A stretch of 64,000 bases of DNA from Eledone cirrhosa. Its lineage: Eukaryota. Positions 6,612-64,000 of this stretch are shown here, piece after piece. The stretch covers positions 126,728,001 to 126,792,000 of the forward strand of contig OZ024745.1 of the NCBI GenBank assembly GCA_964016885.1. Reading direction: 5' to 3'. The position numbers and the translations under genes are program-made. Position 1 is the stretch's first letter; every line of letters starts with the position of its first letter. The notes below the pieces were generated by a model, which was not told the DNA's origin, made no database searches, and worked only from the letters and a program-made list of their open reading frames with translations.

Positions 6612-6888
6612 AGCTCAAGCCGTTATGGTCCATTTGGTTCCTTACCACGATTCCTTCGTTATATATATACATTATATATATATAAACATTATATATATAT
6701 ATATAAAACGAAGGAAGAGTGGTAAGGAACCAGATGGACCATAACGCACCAGAGTACTCAATACTTAGAGTAGTAGAGTGGGTAATGGGAAAATGTTTGA
6801 CCCCGACGGCAGAGCTCAAGCCGTTTCGGCGGCTATTTCTGGACCGTTGAAACAGCTTGAGCTCTGCCGTCGGGGTCAAACATTTTCC
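6612..6888. mobile_element. Penelope/retrozyme-like palindromic element carrying hammerhead 3' halves, embedded in (TA)n
   Basis: Inverted repeat 6788-6888; arms read GAAACGGC-ttgagctct-GCCGTC-ggggtca (one substitution in the right arm); second inverted pair ~6620-6660 vs 6707-6746. Confidence 0.65.
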
Positions 6889-7320: not shown

Positions 7321-7603
7321 ATTGGCCTTGCAATCGAAAGGTGATGTGTTGTTTCCTTGAGCAAGACACTTTATTTCACATTGCTCCAGTTTACTCAGCT
7401 GTAGAAATGAGATGATAGGGACTGGGGTCCCTATCATTCTACTGCAAAGTGGTCGTGGAGGTGCCACGGCAAAAAAGCACCCAGCACTCACTGTAAATGA
7501 GGTCGGTGTTAGGAAGGGCATCCAGCTGTAGAAATCAAGGCAGAATCAGTTCTCGTCCCACCCTTGCAAGCAGGGAAAAGCGGACATAAAGTGATGATGA
7601 TGA
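7321..7603 (+). mobile_element. SINE family B (CORE/Meta-like domain, RTE-derived (TGA)n tail), 5'-truncated
   Basis: Near-identical to 35599-35938 and 61446-61762. Confidence 0.85.
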
Positions 7604-7756
7604 TATATATAATAAGGAGTTGATGGACACAGCATATTTATCAATGCCAGGACCGGTTGTATCTCAGAGTACTCAATAAGCAATGTAAGATACATTCCCA
7701 GACTATACATAGTTATTTGTTTCAATACAACACACGTAAAACAGGTGCCTATAATA

Positions 7757-7874
7757 GTTCCCAGACTCGAGTTTCGGCCACACTTAACGCAGCAGTAGGG
7801 TGCACTGCACCCTCTGTCTGCATATATTATGCAAGAATGCATAATCGGCATATGTGGCTTCATCAGCAGGTATC
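7757..7874 (-). ncRNA. Type I hammerhead ribozyme with large branched stem II
   Basis: Minus strand: CCUG-CUGAUGA-A-GCCACA-[70 nt, two hairpins]-UGUGGC-C-GAA-AC-UCGA-GU-C-UGGG; core 7860-7866, GAAA 7772-7775, GUC 7764-7766; stem I is short (4 bp, two GU). Confidence 0.8.
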
Positions 7875-7983
7875 GCCTAATCAATAACCAATCGATCAAC
7901 AGAATCTAAACCCCAGCCCATGCCGGCTATGATTGTTTGTGATGGCTGACAGAATGAAAGGCTATGTTGTAATTTGAACTCAG

Positions 7984-8038
<55 letters not shown>

Positions 8039-8190
8039 GTTTCTAAATTTCTCCTTTGTTATTCTGAGTTCAAATTACAACATAGCCTTTCTTTCCTGTT
8101 TGGTTAATAAAATAAGTTTTATTAATATACAGATATTTCTACACTATTTCTCACAAAAATTGATTTTCTCACTATGTAATAAATCAGTAT

Positions 8191-13326: not shown

Positions 13327-13378
13327 GTCCAGAAATAGCCGTCGAAACGGCTTGAGCTCTGCCGTCGGGGTCATACTT
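13327..13378 (+). mobile_element. Fragment of the hammerhead-3'-half element (family of 6788 and 35399)
   Basis: gtccagaaatagccgtc-GAAACGGC-ttgagctct-GCCGTC-ggggtca followed by (CT)n/(TA)n. Confidence 0.65.
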
Positions 13379-17569: not shown

Positions 17570-18535
17570 TACTGTAAAGTGGTCGTGTAGGTGTCACGAC
17601 AAAAAGCACCCAGTCAACATTATAAAGTGGTCATGTAGGTGTCATGACAAAAAGCACCCAATCAACACTATAAAGTGGTCATGTAGGTGTCACGACAAAA
17701 AGCACCCAATCAACACTATAAAGTGGTCATGTAGGTGTCACGACAAAAAGCACCCAGTCAACACTATAAAGTGGTCGTGTAGGTGTCATGACAAAAAGCA
17801 CCCAGTCAACACTATAAAGTGGTCATGTAGGTGTCACGACAAAAAGCACCCAATCAACACTATAAAGTGGTCGTGTAGGTGTCATGACAAAAAGCACCCA
17901 ATCAACACTATAAAGTGGTCATGTAGGTGTCACGACAAAAAGCACCCAGTCAACACTATAAAGTGGTTGTGTAGGTGTCATGACAAAAAGCACCTAATCA
18001 ACACTATAAAGTGGTCATGTAGGTGTCACGACAAAAAGCACCCAATCAACACTATAAAGTGGTCGTGTAGGTGTCATGACAAAAAGCACCCAGTCAACAC
18101 TATAAAGTGGTCATGTAGGTGTCATGTCAAAAAGCACCCAGTCAACACTATAAAGTGGTCGTGTAGGTGTCATGACAAAAAGCACCCAGTCAACACTATA
18201 AAGTGATCGTGTAGGTGTCATGACAAAAAGCACCCAGTCAACACTATAAAGTGATCGTGTAGGTGTCATGACAAAAAGCACCCAATTCACACTGTAAAGT
18301 GGTTGTGTAGGTGTCACGACAAAAAGCACCCAATCAACACTATAAAGTGATCGTGTTGGTGTCACGACAAAAAGCACCCAGTTCACACTGTAAGGTGGTC
18401 GTGTAGGTGTCGCAACAAAAAACACCCAGTCAACACTATAAAGTGGTTGTGTAGGCAACACGGCAAAAAGTACTGTCCACATTGTAAATGAAGTTGGCTT
18501 TAGGAAGGGCATCCAGCTATAGAAACCAAGCCAAA
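17570..18535 (+). repeat. 48-bp minisatellite (~19 units) amplified from an internal segment of SINE family B
   Basis: Unit ACACTATAAAGTGGTCRTGTAGGTGTCAYGACAAAAAGCACCCARTCA; array runs into the SINE B sequence TAGGAAGGGCATCCAGC. Confidence 0.9.
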
Positions 18536-26336: not shown

Positions 26337-26839
26337 GAATGCAGAGTTGCAAGGGCTTGTCCCATTTCTTCAATTCTAAAAGTGTTTTGATTTAGCATGT
26401 CAATGGAAGGGACAAATATACAAGCAGATTCCGGGGAAGGTGCATAAAATTGACTCTTAGCAATTGTCTGTACAATCTCCATAAATTCAGGAGAGATGGG
26501 CTGGGAAATACCAATTCCTTTCTCATCCACAAATTTCTCAAAAGGATATACATATACACTTATTTTAGTTTCATCATTGTAACCACAGTGATAAACATCC
26601 ATACATGTGTGGAAGATGCAGTCTTGATTATGAGGTAATGGATGGATGTGAGATGGAGTTATTTTAACTTCTTTACTTTTATCAGCAGTATAGAAAGAGA
26701 AATGGTAAGCTTCAGGTGGTTTGTTTGACTGAGGCCAAAACAAAATGGCTGTTACCATTAATGTGAAGACCAGTATTAATAAAAAGAACAAGTAACTGTT
26801 TTTATAAAATGTTCGCATCATTCTAGGTCTCCCAACCAT
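26337..26839 (-). CDS. EXT2: Exostosin-2 (heparan sulfate co-polymerase), first coding exon
   Basis: Type II TM segment, then CIFHTCMDVYHCGYN...KISVYVY...KFVD...ACIFVPSIDMLNQNTFRI, matching EXT2 (human CRMHTCFDVYRCGFN...ACLFVPSIDVLNQNTLRI). Phase-2 donor TC|GTAAGT at 26336; pyrimidine-rich CAG acceptor at 26866-26868, so the exon spans 26337-26865. Confidence 0.95.
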
Positions 26840-34417: not shown

Positions 34418-34584
34418 GGTTACACAACAGTTAATTCACCATTCAACTATATATATATATATAGTAATAATAATAAATGTGAAGACTAAAATGGGAAGAG
34501 GGCTCGATAAGGATAATATATATATATATATATATTATCCTTATCGAGCCCTCTTCCCATTTTAGTCTTCACATTTATTATTAT

Positions 34585-35395: not shown

Positions 35396-35567
35396 ATAGG
35401 AAAATGTATGACCCCGACGACAGAGCTCAAGCCGTTCTTCTCTCGTCGAAACGGCTTGAGCTCTGCCATCGGGGTCAAACATTTTCCTATTACCCACTCT
35501 ACTAACCTAAGTATTGAGTACTCTGGTGCGTTGTGGTCCATCTGGTTCCTTACCACAACTCCTTCGT
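35396..35567 (+). mobile_element. Palindromic hammerhead-3'-half element (family of 6788)
   Basis: Inverted repeat 35396-35490, then TATTGAGTACTCT and 3' end TACCACAACTCCTTCGT running into (TG)n. Confidence 0.7.
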
Positions 35568-35598: not shown

Positions 35599-35938
35599 GA
35601 GGCACATGGCTTAGTGGTTAGAGCATTGGCCTTGCAATCGAAAGGTTGTGAGTTATTGAACTCTCAGACCGGGTGATGTGTTGTTTCCTTGAGCAAGACA
35701 CTTTATTTCACATTGCTCCAGTTTACTTAGCTGTAGAAATGAGATGATAGGGACTGCGGTCCCTATCATTCCACTGCAAAGTGGTCGTGTAGGTGCCACG
35801 GCAAAAAAGCACCCAGCACTCACTGTAAATGAGGTTGGTGTTAGGAAGGGCATCCAGCTGTAGAAATCATGCCAGAATCAGTTCCCATCCCATCCTTGCA
35901 AGCAGGGAAAAGTGGACGTAAAATGAAATGATGATGAT
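35599..35938 (+). mobile_element. SINE family B, full length
   Basis: tRNA-like head GGCACATGGCTTAGTGGTTAGAGC, CORE/Meta-like TTCCTTGAGCAAGACACTTTA, RTE-like tail ending in (TGA)n. Confidence 0.85.
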
Positions 35939-36121
35939 ATATATATATGGGCTTTCTTTTTATAACAAGCTGAATGAGTTAGGGTGTATAACCCAACTAA
36001 ACTTCAGTATCTGTTTATGTGACTGTTGTAACATAATATATATATCATCATCATATATATATATATATATTTATATATATTATATATATATATTTATACA
36101 TATATATATATATATACACAT

Positions 36122-38133: not shown

Positions 38134-38454
38134 CGTGTGGTGGTACCACCAGAAAACAGACCTGGTAAATGCCGTGAAGTGGTTGGCCTTAGAAAGGGCA
38201 TCCAACCATAGAAACCATGCTGAAATGGAACATAGAAGCAAGACACAGTTGTCTGACCTGCATGTCTAACCACAGAGGATGGCAACCTGTTTAACCCATA
38301 CAAGCATAAAATGGTCATGGTGATATATATATATATATATATACATATATATGTGCAGTAACTCTTTTTGAGAATTTCATGATCTGGTCCATATCTCCCT
38401 CTTTCTCTCTCTCTCTATATATATATACATATATACATAGAGAGAGAGAGAAAG

Positions 38455-39850
38455 AGGGAGATATGGACCAGATCATGAAAGTCTCAGAAAGAGTTACTGC
38501 ACAGCTGATTATGGACCAAGTTAACAGATTTGAGATGCTGTTTGGATTTGTGCTAGATATAAGTACCACTGATGCACTCTTCCTTGTGAGGCAACTGCAG
38601 GGGAAAGTACCTAGCCAAAAGCATTTGTTGACTTGGAGAAAGCTTTTGACAGAGTCCCCTCTTCCATAATCTGGTAAGCTCTTAGAAAGCTGGGGGTAGA
38701 TGAGAAGCTTATGAAGGAGATACAAGCCGTGTACAGAAACAATCAGCAAGGTTAGAATTAACAATGATTATAGTAAGGAATTTAATGTACAAGTAGGAAT
38801 CCATCAGGGCTCTGCTCTTAGCTCTCTCCAGTATATTATCATCCAGCAGGCTATATCAGAAGAGTTTAAGACTGGCTGCTTATGAGAACCCCTATATGCC
38901 AATGATCTACCACACATAGCTGAATCTATGGAAAAATTAGGGAAGAAATTGCAAACCTGGAAGCATAGCTTAAAAGCAAAAGGTTTTAAAGTCAACTTGA
39001 CAAAGACTAAACTCCTCATAAATAGAAGGGAAACAAGGTCCAGATCCCTTCAGGGAAATGGCCTTGCTTAGTGTGCAGGAAAGGAGTGGGTAAAAATTCC
39101 ATCCCATGTCCTAAATGCAAACTATGGGTACACAAGGGATGCTGTGGGATCTCAGACAGACTAACAAAGAATGTAGGTTTTATATGTGGTTGATGCACAG
39201 AAGCAGTTAGCAGCAAGAGCTCTCAGGACATAAGCTCCTTTAAATAATTAGAGGGCTCTGTAGAAGTAGTTGATAGCATCTGTTACCTGAGTGACCAAAT
39301 TAACAGTGGAGCTGGGTGTTCTCAGAGTTCAGTAGCCAGAGTGAGAACGGGAAGTAAAAAGTTCAGGGAGTTACTATTGCTGCTAGCTACAAAAGATTTC
39401 TCTTCAAAATGAGCAGCAGATTATATGACACTTGTGTATGAACAGTAATGTTGCATGGAAGTGAGACCTAGGCAGTGTGTGCAGAGGACTTACAAAGATT
39501 GGAAAGAAACAAAGTTTGCATGCCTCAATGGATGTGCAATAGTAGAGTACACGAATGACAAAGCATCAATGATCTGAGAGAAAAACTGGGGATAAGAGGG
39601 GTCATATACTGTGTGCAGGAGAGAAGATTGTAGTGGTATTGATGTGTGATGTGTAAGGAGGATGACAGTTTTATAAAAAGATGCAATGTGTTCAAAGTCA
39701 ATGCAAACTATGGAAGAGGAAGGCGTAGGAAAGCTTGAGATAAAGTGATGAATGCTGACCTTGCCCAATTAAACCTCACAACAGAGATGACACAGAATTG
39801 GGATCTCTGTCATACTGCTGCATTGCAGAAGACCTGTCATCTCATGTGCT
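38455..39850 (+). mobile_element. RTE/BovB-like LINE reverse transcriptase, 5'-truncated, many stops
   Basis: FGF...STTDALFLVRQLQ, FVDLEKAFDRVP, VGIHQGSALS, LYANDL, and a C-terminal GR.RK motif. Confidence 0.9.
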
Positions 39851-50124: not shown

Positions 50125-50160
<36 letters not shown>

Positions 50161-50164
<4 letters not shown>

Positions 50165-50420
50165 GGGTTGACGGGACTAGCATGGGTTTCACGGCTAGTA
50201 CCGGTTGCATCTCAGCGTACTCAATAGGTAATAATTGTTTCTACTTTTGGCACAAGGCCAGCAATTACCCAGTGCATTACTGGTACTTTATTTTATCGAC
50301 CCCGTAAGGATGAAAGGCAAAGTTAACCTCGGCGGGATTTGAACTCAGAAATGTTAAGTAAACTCCCAGAGTAAACACATAGTTATTCGCTTTAACACAA
50401 CACACGTAAATGGGTACCTT
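50161..50420 (-). mobile_element. 3' part of the 7612-7880 element family, interrupted by a SINE A fragment (50232-50350)
   Basis: Shares CCGGTTG.ATCTCAG.GTACTCAATA and CATAGTTATT...ACAACACACGTAAA with 7650-7740. Confidence 0.65.
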
Positions 50421-51109: not shown

Positions 51110-54100
51110 GAGATATAATAATACTTATATTTAGTAAAACAAAGTATAGTAAGTAAATATACATTTAAGGGCAAACGTAATTTTACTTACATTATAATTA
51201 GCAAATCCAATTATATATATATACATATCTATGTGCATGTGTATAGACACACACACATATAGATAGATATTATAAAGAGTCGGGAACCTACGGCTGAACT
51301 CTTGCTGTTTCAACAGCTAGTTCCAGACTCTTTTATAATATAACTATACTCTACTACTCCAAGTATCGAGTACTCTGTTGAGTAATGGTCAAACGAGTTT
51401 CAAACTAAATCCATTCTGATTTTGATATATATATGTGTTTGTGTATGTGTGTGTGCGCGCGCGTACACAATATATATGTAATATATATATAAAGATAGAT
51501 AGATATGTATATATATGTGTATGTATGTATAAGATATATAACGAGGCTAAGAAAGATAGTGTGAGATATGGTATGTGTACATGATATATTCCATAAATAA
51601 AATTTCAAGATTTACTAATAATTAAGAGAATATTGGGCGGGTTAACACAAGTTGATTTCTTGAAAATTTGAAGTATAATTTTGGCATTCCAAAATTCTTA
51701 TTTTTTATCCTTACATTTTAGCTGGATATCTTTTTTTAATTGATTTCGTTTGATAGACAATTATATATTATTTACTTTCGCTTAATTAAGAAAATATAAA
51801 GAACTTTAACTGATTTGCTTTAAAACTAAATACATTATTTACGAAGAATTATCCACCGTAATGTTTATTCTTGTAGCGTGGCGCCAGTCTTGAGACAGCT
51901 TGCTGCTGCTTTTACTACTACTGTAAAAACATTAACACGGAAAATGTTCACTTCTGCATACAATAGTGCAACTATGCAACGCACTGCTTAATTCATTCAT
52001 ATGCATGTTAATATGTATTTAGTTTGCTTCTGCAATTATCATTCGGTGAGAGAGTAACCGATCGTTGAAACATCGATCGCAAAATCATTATACCAGCCAT
52101 AAGATATACGTTACTAAGTACTAAATACTTACTCTGTAACTTTCTTTTTTTTTTTTAAATCTATATTATTAACATTCAACATATGTTTCGCGTGAATATA
52201 TTGAATTTCCAATGATTGGCGGTCACACACGTGTATACAGATATCTATAAAAGACACACGCAATGTAAATACCTGTGTCTTAGTGTGTGTATCTAAGTAA
52301 AGTGGAAGCTCGATTCACGAACGCCTCTCATCACGAACAAATCGGTTCACAAACAATATTTTCGAACATAAAACGCCTCGGTTGGCGAATGGGGTCTCGA
52401 GGAACGAATACACAAGCCGGCAACAACAGTTGGTGACATGCCGGCAGTATCGGCGGGAAAGCATAACTAGCTGTGTAGTTAGTTACTCTGGTGATATTTA
52501 TATGTCATTCACACACAGTCTCTCTCTCTCTCTCACTGAATTTTTCTCTCAACATTTCGGATGACGAATTGCCTTCAGGAACAAATTATCGTGAACCGAG
52601 ATTGCACTGTATGTATATATATATATATATATATATACACATTATACATGTATAATGGAAATAATATATAGTATATATTCATATAATATATATATACATA
52701 TAAATGATAAAATCACCCATCCCAGTACTGTTTCTATAATAAAATGTCACCAGTGGGAAAAAGACCCAGAATAGTGTTGATGATGATGAATAGATATGAA
52801 ACAAATGTGTAATCAAATGTGTAATCATTTAACACTCATTTTTCCTGCTAGCAAGGGTTGAATGGGACATCATATTTTCAAAGCTAGTGGTGTGGAATTA
52901 CATAAATACAAATGATTAACTTACATATTAATATTTGCTCACTGAAACAATGATTAATTACAGACAATGGATTAATTACTAATTTATTTTGTTTTTCTTA
53001 CTCCCTCATTGTTTAACCTTTATATATTTGACTCTCTAGTTTGAATGTTCATTGACATGTACAAGGAGATCCTCTTTACACAAAAACAGATGACACTCGG
53101 CTTTGATTGAATATTCACATCTACACAACATTGAGTTCTAAGACTGTTATAAATCCTGCCCAGACTAGACAAAACAAATATGTATCATTATCATCATCAT
53201 TTAAAGTCTGCCTTTCTTTCTAACAAATGTTAGGTAGACAGTATTCAAGCAGAGTTTCTGACATCTCATATGGGCTGGAGGTGCCTACATCTTGCTTATG
53301 TACTTTCCATGGAGAAAGACTTCTTCATAACCTTCTGTTTGTCTCATTTCCTGGTGAACATGAGATCTAACTAGTATTGCATATTCACCTGATTGGTATG
53401 TGATCAAGTAACTGGCTGGTTTCCTGAAATTAGTATTGAAAATGGTTTAAATCATTTTCATCATAGACCTTCAGGAGCCTTGATCTTTCCTCCTTCCTCT
53501 TAGTGTATCCATAGATACCATATACCTCAGAGAAACTATCCTGGTGCTACCCAACATATCCATCAACCATTTCATTGCTATATTTCTAATGGAATTCAAA
53601 GCTATTGTGTTTCAGTTAATTTTGAAGATAACTAAAAATTTAGAAAAAATTTAATGAAATAACTTTTTCATTAGTAAGCTGATATTTTACATCATTTTGT
53701 AACAAACATTTCTCAAATAAAATTAATTTGGAAGGTTTTACCATAAGTGTAAACATTTTAAAATGGGCAGTTTTGTGTCATAAATCTAGAGTAGTTTCAG
53801 GCAGGTTGGTATTAAAAGTGTTCAAGCTACTATCTACCATACTGAAGTCACTGTTATTTGTTATCCGGCTGCTCTGCAAGAGTGTGTCATAGAAATTTTC
53901 CTTTGCTTATCTGCCAGCAATAACAGTTCATTTTTATTGTTTATGATTAGTCTAAGCTTAACTGTTCTATCATAAACTCTGACTACCTCAGCTATTTTAT
54001 ACTTTTTCTCTGCAACAATGTGCCTACTCCACCTACTCAAGCATTGTTACCTTATTTAAAGTTAAAGTCTGTCTTATCCCTTTAACATTTAAACTGCTTG

Positions 54101-60836: not shown

Positions 60837-62324
<1,488 letters not shown>

Positions 62325-62606
62325 GGAACAAGTAAGACCCCTTCGTTATCTAGCTCCTATCCCCGTAGTAGAGCACTTTCCGACCCTACCACGCCTTCCT
62401 TCGTTGTATATATATATATATATATGTAATAAATACAATATCGGAGAAAGCTTTTTAGCGATACTCCGGCCAAATTCCAACTCACTCAACAAACATTAGG
62501 AAATAAGTCATTAGATTCCCAATTATGTGTTCGGGGTGCTAACTAAAAGTATTGCGTGGAAAATTGGCTGTATTATTTCAAATGAGACATATCTAATACA
62601 TCTCTT

Positions 62607-62733
62607 CCCAGACGGACGTCTCGTTTCATTATAGGATTCCTACAATTTGGGTGAAATTATACCAATTTATGTAGGAACTTGTATACCATCAATAGATATA
62701 TATTCAAGTGGGCTCCTATAATTCATCAGTGGG
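62607..62733 (-). ncRNA. Type I hammerhead ribozyme with large branched stem II
   Basis: Minus strand: CCCA-CUGAUGA-AUUAUAGGA-[77 nt]-UCCUAUAAU-GAA-ACG-AGACGUC-CGU-C-UGGG; core 62723-62729, GAAA 62624-62627, GUC 62611-62613. Confidence 0.85.
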
Positions 62734-64000
62734 TGCCCCAATAATACTAATATTGATAATCTAACCAACATCAGCATTTAGCGATAATCACTTTCTGTTG
62801 TGCCTGAGGTATCTGTCAGGTTGCCAGTCCAGCAGTTCTAAAGAAGTGCTCGAACTGATTCAAAAAATGAGGAAGTGAATTACCGCCAAAAAAACAATAC
62901 AAGCGCGTGACAATGAACTCTGAAAGGAATTCAGATATATATGTATATATATATATATATATAGTTATACTTGGGAGTTTTTTGATCCTCTGTGTTCGGA
63001 CCTGGTGTACATGAGAGATGGTGAGGGCGAGAGAGACAGAGGCGATGACAGTGGGATTTTGGTTCCACTGTGTTCGGATCTGGTGTACATGTGTGTTTAA
63101 TTTTACACTGTCAACCTTTTGCTTTCCATAATTTTCTTGGTACTACACAAGTAATAGTTCTTAATCATATCAACTGAAAGAGCAATCAAATATTCAACAT
63201 CTCTCTCTCTCTCTAATTATTTATATCATAACATATTAGCTGCTCTTCAAATTGACAGTGAAATGTTAAATATATTTAGTATTAGTGAACAATGATTGCT
63301 CTCGTATTACCAACTAGTCTATAAACACAATAGGAATCACTACCAACACAGATAACATCAACAGCAGTAATTGTAGTTAGTTTTTTTATCTGCTTATTGA
63401 TGACGATCTCTTTATCTAAAGTAAACAGTTTACATTCTAATCATATAAAGAAGACTTGTTGAAGGAAGTCTATTATGCAATACAAAATTTACTTTTGTCT
63501 TTCTACCTACTGATTTCAAATCTCGCTGGGGTTGGCTTTGCCGTTAATTCCTTCAGGGTTGATAGAAAGGTGCTGATCATCAGATCAGAACAAAGAAAAC
63601 ATGTTTCATGTCTCTCCATTCCATTGCAATGCCTGGTAAAAAGAGGTATGATTTGAACTCGGAATGCACAGAGGTGGATTAGATACAGCAAAGCATCTTC
63701 TCAAACTCTTTAACATTTCCCTGGAAAGAAGAAAAGCGAAATTGATCTCAATGGGATTTGAACTCAGAAAGCTGGAACAAATACAGAAGCATATAATCTG
63801 ATGCTCTAATGACTCTGCCAATAAAGGTTGATAAAATATATGCTATTAATGCATTTAAATCAATTTACTTTGTTAGATTCTCATCCACCACCCCGCCCAA
63901 TTTAACCTGATGCCTAATAGAATGGTTTCTTTATTCACAATAATGGTTTCTTTATTCTTCATGCCTAATAGAATAATATCAAAATTCCCTTGGTGGTATC

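What the first reader, a model, noticed from the sequence alone, without database searches (positions are those of the whole stretch)
7612..7880. Second, sequence-unrelated branched-stem-II hammerhead, sense to the EXT2 intron
Seen: CUGAUGA and GAAAC-UCGA-GUC flank a GCCACA/UGUGGC stem enclosing 70 nt with two strong hairpins (7797-7813 and 7826-7845). Both this and the 62.6-kb ribozyme continue GUC-UGGGAA after the predicted cut and run about 150-185 nt to a (TA)n-abutting 3' end. Inference: the same architecture in a different sequence points to a conserved structural class rather than a chance insertion.
Basis: partly seen in the sequence, partly recalled or inferred. Interest (0 to 1): 0.8.

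Follow-up and report, generated by a model that had tools for sequence, protein, structure and literature searches.

The report
Branched hammerhead in octopus retroelement tail
An intron of an octopus EXT2 gene holds a truncated copy of a very abundant repeat, likely the tail of a Penelope-like jumping gene, that carries a complete hammerhead self-cutting RNA motif whose normally tiny second loop is replaced by a predicted two-hairpin branch; cutting is untested and this lone copy is probably a passenger.

Summary
On the minus strand a full type I hammerhead core (7866-7764) encloses a 7-bp stem II capped by two hairpin arms. One descriptor finds only this site and the 62.7-kb site in the window; 2 of 300 shuffles gave any hit. 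Public runs show a high-copy family (1,915 contigs in one run). The shared 'GUC-UGGGAA' is partly a private change of this copy. The element is 5'-truncated, ends in (TA)n 152 nt after the cut, and shares a tail hairpin with Hydra-clade Penelope-like elements. No ORF could be linked. The core, short stem I and palindromic stem III match published Penelope-type hammerheads; the 68-nt branched loop II does not. New leads: a 4-bp pairing between the junction and the stem I flank in both families, and a hairpin that competes with stem I. Verdict: a real new variant of a known kind. Cleavage is untested, and nothing points to an effect on EXT2.

The parts
7612..7951 (-). 5'-truncated copy of a high-copy repeat, likely the 3' end (pseudo-LTR) of a Penelope-like element
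   Evidence: Depth high over 7612-7910 and fading to about 7950; loose ends show the family running on past 7951
7874..7877 (-). [quoted passage not shown]
   Evidence: Complementarity seen directly; same arrangement at 62738-62735 with 62713-62710; background 29 of 330 and 6 of 493 ten-mers; untested
7867..7870 (-). Stem I, 5' strand (CCUG here; CCCG in the family majority)
7860..7866 (-). Hammerhead core CUGAUGA (C3-A9)
   Evidence: sequence
7852..7859 (-). Unpaired A7859 and stem II 5' strand (7 bp)
7846..7851 (-). 6-nt junction strand AUGCCG; 7851 and 7850 vary in the family
7826..7845 (-). First arm, 8-bp hairpin
   Evidence: mean pair probability 0.97
7787..7823 (-).
7776..7783 (-). Stem II 3' strand and unpaired C7776 (A in a sister subfamily)
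7764..7775 (-). GAAA core, palindromic stem III ACUCGAGU (7772-7765) and C17; predicted cut between 7764 and 7763
   Evidence: sequence; self-duplex -10.7 kcal/mol, no hairpin alone
7760..7763 (-). Stem I, 3' strand (UGGG here; CGGG in the family majority)
7742..7745 (-). Second copy of the stem I 5' tetramer; predicted to close a hairpin that sequesters the stem I 3' strand
   Evidence: pair probability 0.93 with four majority letters, 0.008 in this copy; same arrangement with other letters in a sister subfamily (loose end)
7671..7704 (-). Tail hairpin: 4-bp stem, UU bulge, further stem; of the type seen near the ends of Hydra-clade Penelope-like elements
   Evidence: three majority letters restore pairs and one pair swaps on both sides in some reads; three other window elements carry it; read by eye in published consensi; weak in this copy alone, z 0.04
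7603..7611 (.). Short (TA)n tract at the element's 3' end, shared with the tail of a different repeat at 7323-7604
7952..7986 (.). 35-bp inverted copy of flanking DNA at 8061-8095, joined to the truncated 5' end; not part of the family
   Evidence: 97% inverted match; depth near zero here
7987..8036 (.). (TA)25 tract on the 5' side
26337..26839 (-). First coding exon of EXT2; the finding lies in the intron that follows, in sense
50160..50410 (-). Sister-subfamily copy of the 3' tail, split by another repeat (about 50229-50348) and truncated before the ribozyme
   Evidence: 75.6% identity over 131 columns, E 2e-23
62428..62935 (-). Second, sequence-unrelated element with the same hammerhead layout (core 62729-62611), flanked by (TA)n; upstream of the EXT2 coding exon

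Best explanation
This is a 5'-truncated copy of an abundant octopus repeat, likely the 3' end of a Penelope-like retroelement (probably Hydra clade), and it carries a complete type I hammerhead motif whose loop II is replaced by a predicted two-arm branch. Shown: the core, the pairable stems, the palindrome, the high copy number, the truncation and the (TA)n ends. Inferred mechanism: in the parent element, tandem transcripts hold two ribozyme copies that pair through ACUCGAGU, build two stable stems III and cut after GUC, trimming the element RNA. The YGCC junction strand would dock on GGCG just 5' of stem I, standing in for the usual loop I-loop II contact. A hairpin just 3' of the cut would compete with stem I, keeping monomers off and trapping the 3' product. 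The copy would have been inserted by reverse transcription primed at a nick in (TA)n. This particular copy is alone, has lost two G-C pairs of stem I to G-U, and is most likely a near-inert passenger in the EXT2 intron.
For: Non-chance motif and fold. High-copy family in organism A: 1,915 contigs in X1, 1,097 and 1,357 reads in X5 and X6; one 151-nt contig in organism B covers 7755-7905 with 7 other letters. Of the 40 difference rows shown (71 not shown), 9 are X1-majority differences inside predicted helices: 7 strengthen or restore a pair (7868, 7763, 7788, 7743, 7703, 7679, 7678), 1 weakens (7842), 1 breaks (7812). None of the 40 rows lies in 7866-7859 or 7775-7764. A two-sided swap of pair 7702-7673 appears in 92 reads of X5 and 113 of X6, from 1-2 start points, probably one locus. 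Published traits of Penelope-type hammerheads match: helix II 7-8 bp, helix I 4-5 bp, extra base after A9, palindromic helix III, mostly single truncated copies (PMC4209133). Hydra-clade elements insert in (TA)n, occur in Octopus, and have the cut about 30-153 nt from the 3' end (my arithmetic from the table). Their tail hairpin (stem, 2-nt bulge, GAGY-AC) is visible by eye in 3 of 6 published Hydra consensi, with one mismatch in a fourth. It occurs at three other window sites 29-56 nt from (TA)n, against a shuffle mean of 0.013.
Against: No reverse transcriptase or endonuclease sequence is attached: 0 hits for 10 protein motifs in six frames of the window, and no relative for the 40-codon frame upstream of the 62.6-kb site. 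The only hint is a frameshifted resemblance to the Hydra C-terminus at 62934-62905, seen by eye. Rfam finds no hammerhead at either site. Stem I has pair probability about 0 in the monomer, even with majority letters; forcing the active fold costs 5-10 kcal/mol. A7859 faces C or A rather than forming the usual 10.1-11.1 pair. The docking contact is only 4 bp, is weak against background here (29 of 330), and its fourth pair is broken in about 43% of X1 depth (7850); its geometry on a 7-9-bp stem II was not modelled. This copy itself fails the tail-hairpin descriptor. Organism A is not shown to be the window's species. Published Penelope-type hammerheads cleave poorly in vitro, and one needed the element's protein.
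Confidence: 0.7

Rival explanations
1. The family is a non-autonomous element (non-LTR retrozyme or SINE-like) that carries the branched hammerhead, has no ORF of its own, and borrows Penelope enzymes, possibly through circular RNA.
For: No ORF found. Very high abundance over only about 340 nt. Retrozymes are described as derivatives of Penelope pseudo-LTRs, with many solo monomers (bioRxiv 10.64898/2026.07.22.740005).
Against: No tandem array here and no backward joint among the four joints listed. The family runs on 5' of this copy and depth fades gradually, as expected for 5' truncation of something longer.
Confidence: 0.17
2. The branch is a neutral or inactivating insertion into an ordinary Penelope hammerhead. 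The two families look alike because long AU/GC-rich loops fold into arms, and no docking contact exists.
For: Any two-arm junction arises in 277 and 243 of 1000 shuffled interiors. One arm pair is broken in the majority (7812) and the junction varies (7850, 7851). Hammerhead cleavage was dispensable for insertion in vitro in one Penelope element (PMC11167929).
Against: Shuffled interiors fold as well in only 1 and 17 of 1000 and give the same layout in 38 and 7 of 1000. Both families place a GCC(C) junction strand opposite a GG(G/C)C/G flank. The family amplified to high copy number with the branch in place.
Confidence: 0.25
3. The ribozyme was co-opted by the host to cut or regulate EXT2 pre-mRNA, like the conserved intronic hammerheads of amniotes.
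For: It lies in sense in the EXT2 intron. Domesticated intronic hammerheads are described (PMC6155905).
Against: This copy differs from the family majority in ways that weaken stem I. It needs a partner, and the only other family copy in the window lacks the core. With so many copies, intronic sense insertions are expected.
Confidence: 0.04
4. The motif is a chance arrangement of letters in repeat-rich DNA.
For: The descriptor was written after the fact; Rfam gives no match.
Against: 2 of 300 shuffles gave one hit and none gave two. 0 of 36 pattern-matched public loci pass the same descriptor. Majority letters repair the stems.
Confidence: 0.01

Closest known systems
Hammerheads in the pseudo-LTRs of metazoan Penelope-like elements (Cervera and de la Pena 2014, PMC4209133)
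   Same: Type I topology, stem II of 7 bp, stem I of 4 bp, extra base after A9, palindromic weak stem III predicting dimers, mostly single truncated copies.
   Different: Loop II is a 68-nt two-arm domain (77 nt at 62.6 kb). There is also an unpaired base before GAAA. A base-paired stem I-II contact is predicted, whereas those motifs are described as lacking tertiary contacts.
Hydra-clade Penelope-like elements (Craig et al. 2021, PMC8557442)
   Same: (TA)n targets, presence in Octopus, cut close to the 3' end, unpaired 10.1/11.1 position in several rows, and a tail hairpin with a 2-nt bulge before GAGY-AC (by eye).
   Different: Listed Hydra hammerheads have loop 2 of 3-10 nt. The published octopus member Hydra-1_Obim is a different sequence with a short tail. 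No ORF could be tied to this family.
PLE-X1_sMoe hammerhead of spike moss (File S2 of PMC8557442)
   Same: A Penelope-related hammerhead with a 9-bp stem II and an enlarged loop 2 (35 nt), marked as deviating from the canonical structure.
   Different: Half the size, no two-arm junction described, a plant element without endonuclease that targets 28S rDNA.
Pseudoknotted hammerheads (Perreault et al. 2011, PMC3088659)
   Same: Base pairing between stem I and stem II regions as the tertiary contact; reported for all three types, about 40% of representatives.
   Different: There the contact involves loops or tails near short stems. Here it would start from a junction strand on top of a 7-9-bp stem II, and it is only predicted.
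Non-LTR retrozymes of animals (PMC7229834; bioRxiv 10.64898/2026.07.22.740005)
   Same: Type I hammerhead in a non-coding high-copy repeat; mollusc examples exist (mussel).
   Different: Defined by tandem units of a few hundred bases; this copy is single, truncated and bounded by (TA)n.

Membership tests
Type I hammerhead ribozyme | Core CUGANGA ... GAAA ... UH in order, ends meeting in stem I | tested here: met
Type I hammerhead ribozyme | Three pairable stems around the core | tested here: met
   stem I 4 bp (2 G-U here, all G-C in the majority), stem II 7 bp, stem III 2 bp plus palindrome
Type I hammerhead ribozyme | Paired 10.1-11.1 directly against the core | tested here: not met
   A7859 faces C7776 (A in a subfamily); a G-C pair follows. 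Mismatches at this place are published
Type I hammerhead ribozyme | Match to an Rfam hammerhead model | tested here: not met
   no hammerhead hit at E up to 10 or among the 150 of 223 window rows shown
Type I hammerhead ribozyme | Site-specific self-cleavage | not testable with these tools
   needs an in vitro assay
Penelope-type hammerhead (Cervera and de la Pena 2014) | Long helix II (7-8 bp), short helix I (4-5 bp), extra base after A9 | tested here: met
   7 bp, 4 bp, A7859 (definition)
Penelope-type hammerhead (Cervera and de la Pena 2014) | Palindromic 15.2-16.2 and loop 3 | tested here: met
   ACUCGAGU self-pairs fully
Penelope-like element | ORF with telomerase-like RT and GIY-YIG endonuclease | tested here: inconclusive
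   copy truncated 85 nt upstream of the core; no motif hits in the window; no protein relative for the 62.6-kb frame
Penelope-like element | Hammerhead near the 3' end; dispersed, 5'-truncated copies | tested here: met
   cut 152 nt from the end; family runs on 5' of the copy
Penelope-like element | Tandem or inverted pseudo-LTR arrangement | tested here: inconclusive
   not at this copy; the 35-bp inverted piece copies flanking DNA
Hydra clade | Insertion in (TA)n | tested here: met
   shared with Naiad elements, so not diagnostic
Hydra clade | Protein motifs RWK, DKT, CxCX5C; no CCHH | not testable with these tools
   no ORF in the copy and no genome held
Hydra clade | Canonical hammerhead with small loop 2 | tested here: not met
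   68 nt here against 3-10 nt in the Hydra rows of File S2
Non-LTR retrozyme | Tandem units each holding a hammerhead | tested here: not met
   no array at this locus; arrays elsewhere in the genome could not be checked

The most novel reading that the evidence does not exclude
Cephalopod Penelope-like elements have evolved a distinct, active hammerhead subclass. Loop II is a three-way junction whose single strand docks by base pairing on the flank of stem I, and a downstream anti-stem hairpin acts as an off switch. The architecture is kept across sequence-unrelated families and is invisible to current models, so these genomes would hold many uncounted ribozymes.
Probability: 0.33. Interest if true: 0.7.

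Novelty: new variant of a known kind. Interest (0 to 1): 0.5.

Why it matters
Published searches cap the distance between the two core halves: 7-17 nt for core motifs and 35-50 nt for 'half cores' in Craig et al.. Here it is 84 and 95 nt, and Rfam misses both sites. If the variant is real and active, hammerheads in Penelope-like elements are undercounted in cephalopods and perhaps in other groups. It would also show a natural hammerhead carrying a large structured domain on stem II, with a testable base-paired tertiary contact and a built-in off switch, which bears on the open question of what these ribozymes do for the element. It does not point to a new kind of ribozyme or to regulation of EXT2.

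Tried and rejected
Whole genome: none held, so no copy-by-copy alignment or covariance model was built.

Rfam: no hammerhead at either site.

Pattern scans for relatives: metagenomes gave 4 loci, prokaryote genomes 1 and 0, viral contigs 0, 0 and 31. 0 of these 36 loci pass the structural descriptor, and the 4 metagenome loci show no similarity to the window. All rejected as chance.

Expression: no RNA holder listed.

Coding potential: an open frame runs through the element (7905-7549). Family variants show no clear third-position bias (5 of 11 polymorphic places, counted by hand), and 1-2-base indels occur between subfamilies. Rejected as coding. A 'PVA.HF'-like reading of the upstream loose ends was rejected because too few codons remain before the core (motif recalled). 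The 40-codon frame upstream of the 62.6-kb site found no relative.

Naiad origin: considered because of (TA)n targeting. The 3' ends of Naiad_Obim and Naiad_Ovul shown are different sequences, and my longer motifs had no hit in that supplement.

Second GUCUGGGAA at 7703-7695: a private change; the family has C at 7703.

My first constrained fold of the 62.6-kb site used wrong coordinates and was redone.

Lunse et al. 2017 was not held.

Earlier findings: nothing by sequence or for the specific words.

Full report
WHAT IS THERE. The window is octopod DNA: the first coding exon of EXT2 at 26839-26337 (minus strand) is 81% and 79% identical to exostosin-2 of Octopus bimaculoides and O. vulgaris. 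It ends in a GTAAGT donor, and tblastn with three relatives finds no later exon in the window. The finding therefore lies in sense in the intron after that exon, assuming the gene continues beyond position 1. On the minus strand the ribozyme motif reads: stem I 7870-7867, CUGAUGA 7866-7860, unpaired A7859, stem II 7858-7852 with 7783-7777, unpaired C7776, GAAA 7775-7772, C-UCGA-G-U-C to 7764, predicted cut, stem I 7763-7760. Stem II encloses 68 nt that fold as a three-way junction: a 6-nt strand, an 8-bp arm, 2 nt, a 16-bp arm, 3 nt.

IS IT CHANCE. A descriptor (core, stem II of 6 bp or more, 40-130 nt, stem III, stem I of 4 bp or more) hits only this site and the 62.7-kb site. In 300 block dinucleotide shuffles the mean was 0.007; 2 had one hit and none had two. 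The descriptor was written after seeing both sites. The stem II domain folds at z -5.3 here and z -3.3 at 62.6 kb, with 0 of 200 shuffles as low in each case. With stem II fixed and the interior shuffled, two arms arise in 277 and 243 of 1000, the observed junction layout in 38 and 7 of 1000, and an energy as low in 1 and 17 of 1000. Rfam does not recognise either site. The two elements are unrelated in sequence.

THE FAMILY. No genome is held. Four of seven listed public runs hold part of the stretch. I laid four runs on it: X1 gave 1,915 contigs, X5 1,097 reads and X6 1,357 reads, all organism A, which is not shown to be the window's species; X4, organism B, gave 1 contig. Depth is high over 7612-7910 and fades to about 7950, and loose ends show the family continuing past 7951, so this copy is 5'-truncated. 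The table shows 40 of 111 difference rows. In X1 the majority has C at 7868 and 7763, so stem I is CCCG/CGGG in the family and has two G-U pairs in this copy, both at CpG sites. Nine majority differences fall in predicted helices: seven strengthen or restore a pair, one turns A-U into G-U (7842) and one breaks a pair (7812). No shown row lies in the core or stem III, but 71 rows were not shown. Loose ends reveal sister subfamilies: stem II 3' strands with other letters and A in place of C7776, and one with GUA followed by UGGG. A copy of that sister type, cut off before the ribozyme, lies at 50160-50410 (75.6% identity over 131 columns).

First, in both families the first junction strand is complementary to the bases just 5' of stem I: GGCG 7877-7874 with UGCC 7850-7847, and GGGC 62738-62735 with GCCC 62713-62710. 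Against ten-mers of the same element, 29 of 330 and 6 of 493 pair as well. At 7850 about 49% of X1 depth has C, which gives a G-C pair, and about 43% has A, which breaks it. This is a lead, not a result. Second, the tetramer of the stem I 5' strand recurs at 7745-7742. With four majority letters it captures the stem I 3' strand with probability 0.93, and the sister subfamily has the same hairpin with different letters. At 62.6 kb a 9-bp hairpin follows the cut but does not capture stem I in the predicted fold.

WHAT KIND OF ELEMENT. Cervera and de la Pena describe metazoan Penelope hammerheads with helix II of 7-8 bp, helix I of 4-5 bp, an extra base after A9 and a palindromic helix III, mostly as single truncated copies with low activity even as dimers (PMC4209133, parts 1-2 of 4 read). 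All of that fits. Craig et al. list Hydra-clade elements that insert in (TA)n, include an Octopus member, and carry hammerheads with loop 2 of 3-10 nt (PMC8557442; passages, section 11, supplement parts 1, 2, 52 and 53 read). By eye, 3 of the 6 Hydra consensi carry a hairpin of the form 4-bp stem, 2-nt bulge, stem, followed by GAGY-AC: Hydra-2_Amil and Hydra-2_Ajap near the 3' end and Hydra-1_Ajap at the 5' end. Hydra-1_Crog has it with one mismatch; Hydra-1_Amil has only a trace and Hydra-1_Obim none that I could see. The same hairpin occurs at three other window sites 29-56 nt from (TA)n (shuffle mean 0.013) and at 7704-7671 here once majority letters are considered; this copy alone fails the descriptor. 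No protein evidence was found, apart from a weak frameshifted resemblance to the Hydra C-terminus 200 nt upstream of the 62.7-kb core. Clade membership is therefore likely but unproven.

HOW IT MOST LIKELY WORKS. Shown: motif, stems, palindrome, abundance, truncation, (TA)n ends. Inferred from known Penelope biology: tandem element transcripts bring two ribozymes together; the palindrome (-10.7 kcal/mol as a duplex, no hairpin alone) builds stem III across copies; cleavage after GUC trims the RNA. In the monomer the active fold lies 7-10 kcal/mol above the minimum for this copy and 5-8 with majority letters, so a partner or a protein would be needed. In the one Penelope element studied biochemically, the ribozyme cut only with the element's protein, was dispensable for insertion in vitro, and reverse transcription began internally downstream of it at nicks in AT-rich DNA (PMC11167929, parts 1-2 of 4). 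That would explain a fixed 3' end 152 nt past the cut abutting (TA)n. This lone, decayed copy most likely does little to EXT2.

NOVELTY. I found no description of a two-arm loop II in a Penelope hammerhead in eight literature searches or in the passages read from PMC3088659, PMC7229834, PMC6765202, PMC13282606, PMC6155905, PMC13725137 and PMC10085705, nor in parts 1-3 of 5 of bioRxiv 10.64898/2026.07.22.740005. Partial precedents exist: a 35-nt loop 2 in a spike-moss element, base-paired stem I-II contacts, and a mention of variants with additional helices. Not seen, and possibly relevant: Lunse et al. 2017, the supplementary figures of Cervera and de la Pena, the O. vulgaris repeat supplement (listed, not read), and Repbase or Dfam consensi.

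VERDICT. Observation confirmed; interpretation partly supported. A real, high-copy structural variant of the Penelope-type hammerhead, with two testable extras. New variant of a known kind; interest 0.5.

Noticed in passing
window 6620-6880 (-), 13344-13370 (+), 35400-35560 (+): A third (TA)n-bounded family carries the 3' half of a hammerhead (GAAAC, longer stem III with a palindromic loop, GUC then GGGG), an inverted 5' copy as typical of Penelope elements, and the same tail hairpin; its 5' core half is missing in these copies.
   Followed up: partly
window 31671-31530 (-): CUGAAGA lies 115 nt upstream of a similar hammerhead 3' half next to (TA)n, with a possible 4-bp stem I and several hairpins between, but no enclosing stem II; perhaps a decayed long-loop relative.
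   Followed up: partly
window 62325-62408 (+): Short stub with the tail hairpin, lying tail to tail with the 62.6-kb element in one (TA)n tract.
   Followed up: partly
window 51364-51375: Another near match to the tail motif, in a context like the 6.7-kb family.
   Followed up: no
window 62934-62905 (-): Across a 1-base frameshift the first codons of the 62.6-kb element read like the C-terminal LN..SEFI motif of Hydra-clade proteins, 200 nt upstream of the core as in Hydra-1_Obim; weak and seen by eye only.
   Followed up: partly
window 7952-7986/8061-8095; also 6620-6747, 34477-34574, 38354-38502: Inverted duplications centred on (TA)n tracts are frequent; at the finding the inverted piece is joined to the truncated 5' end, suggesting template switching during insertion.
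   Followed up: partly
window 7323-7604, 35672-35939, 61496-61760: Three copies of a roughly 270-bp repeat at 94-97% identity with a (GAT)n tail, SINE-like; one abuts the finding's 3' end.
   Followed up: no
window 17571-18470: Tandem array of 18.8 copies of a 48-bp unit derived from the middle of that SINE-like repeat.
   Followed up: no
PMC8557442 supplement, 3' ends of Naiad_Obim and Naiad_Ovul: Both show GAAAC upstream of CUGAUGA with short complementary stretches around them, i.e. core halves in the reverse order; a permuted hammerhead there may be worth checking.
   Followed up: no
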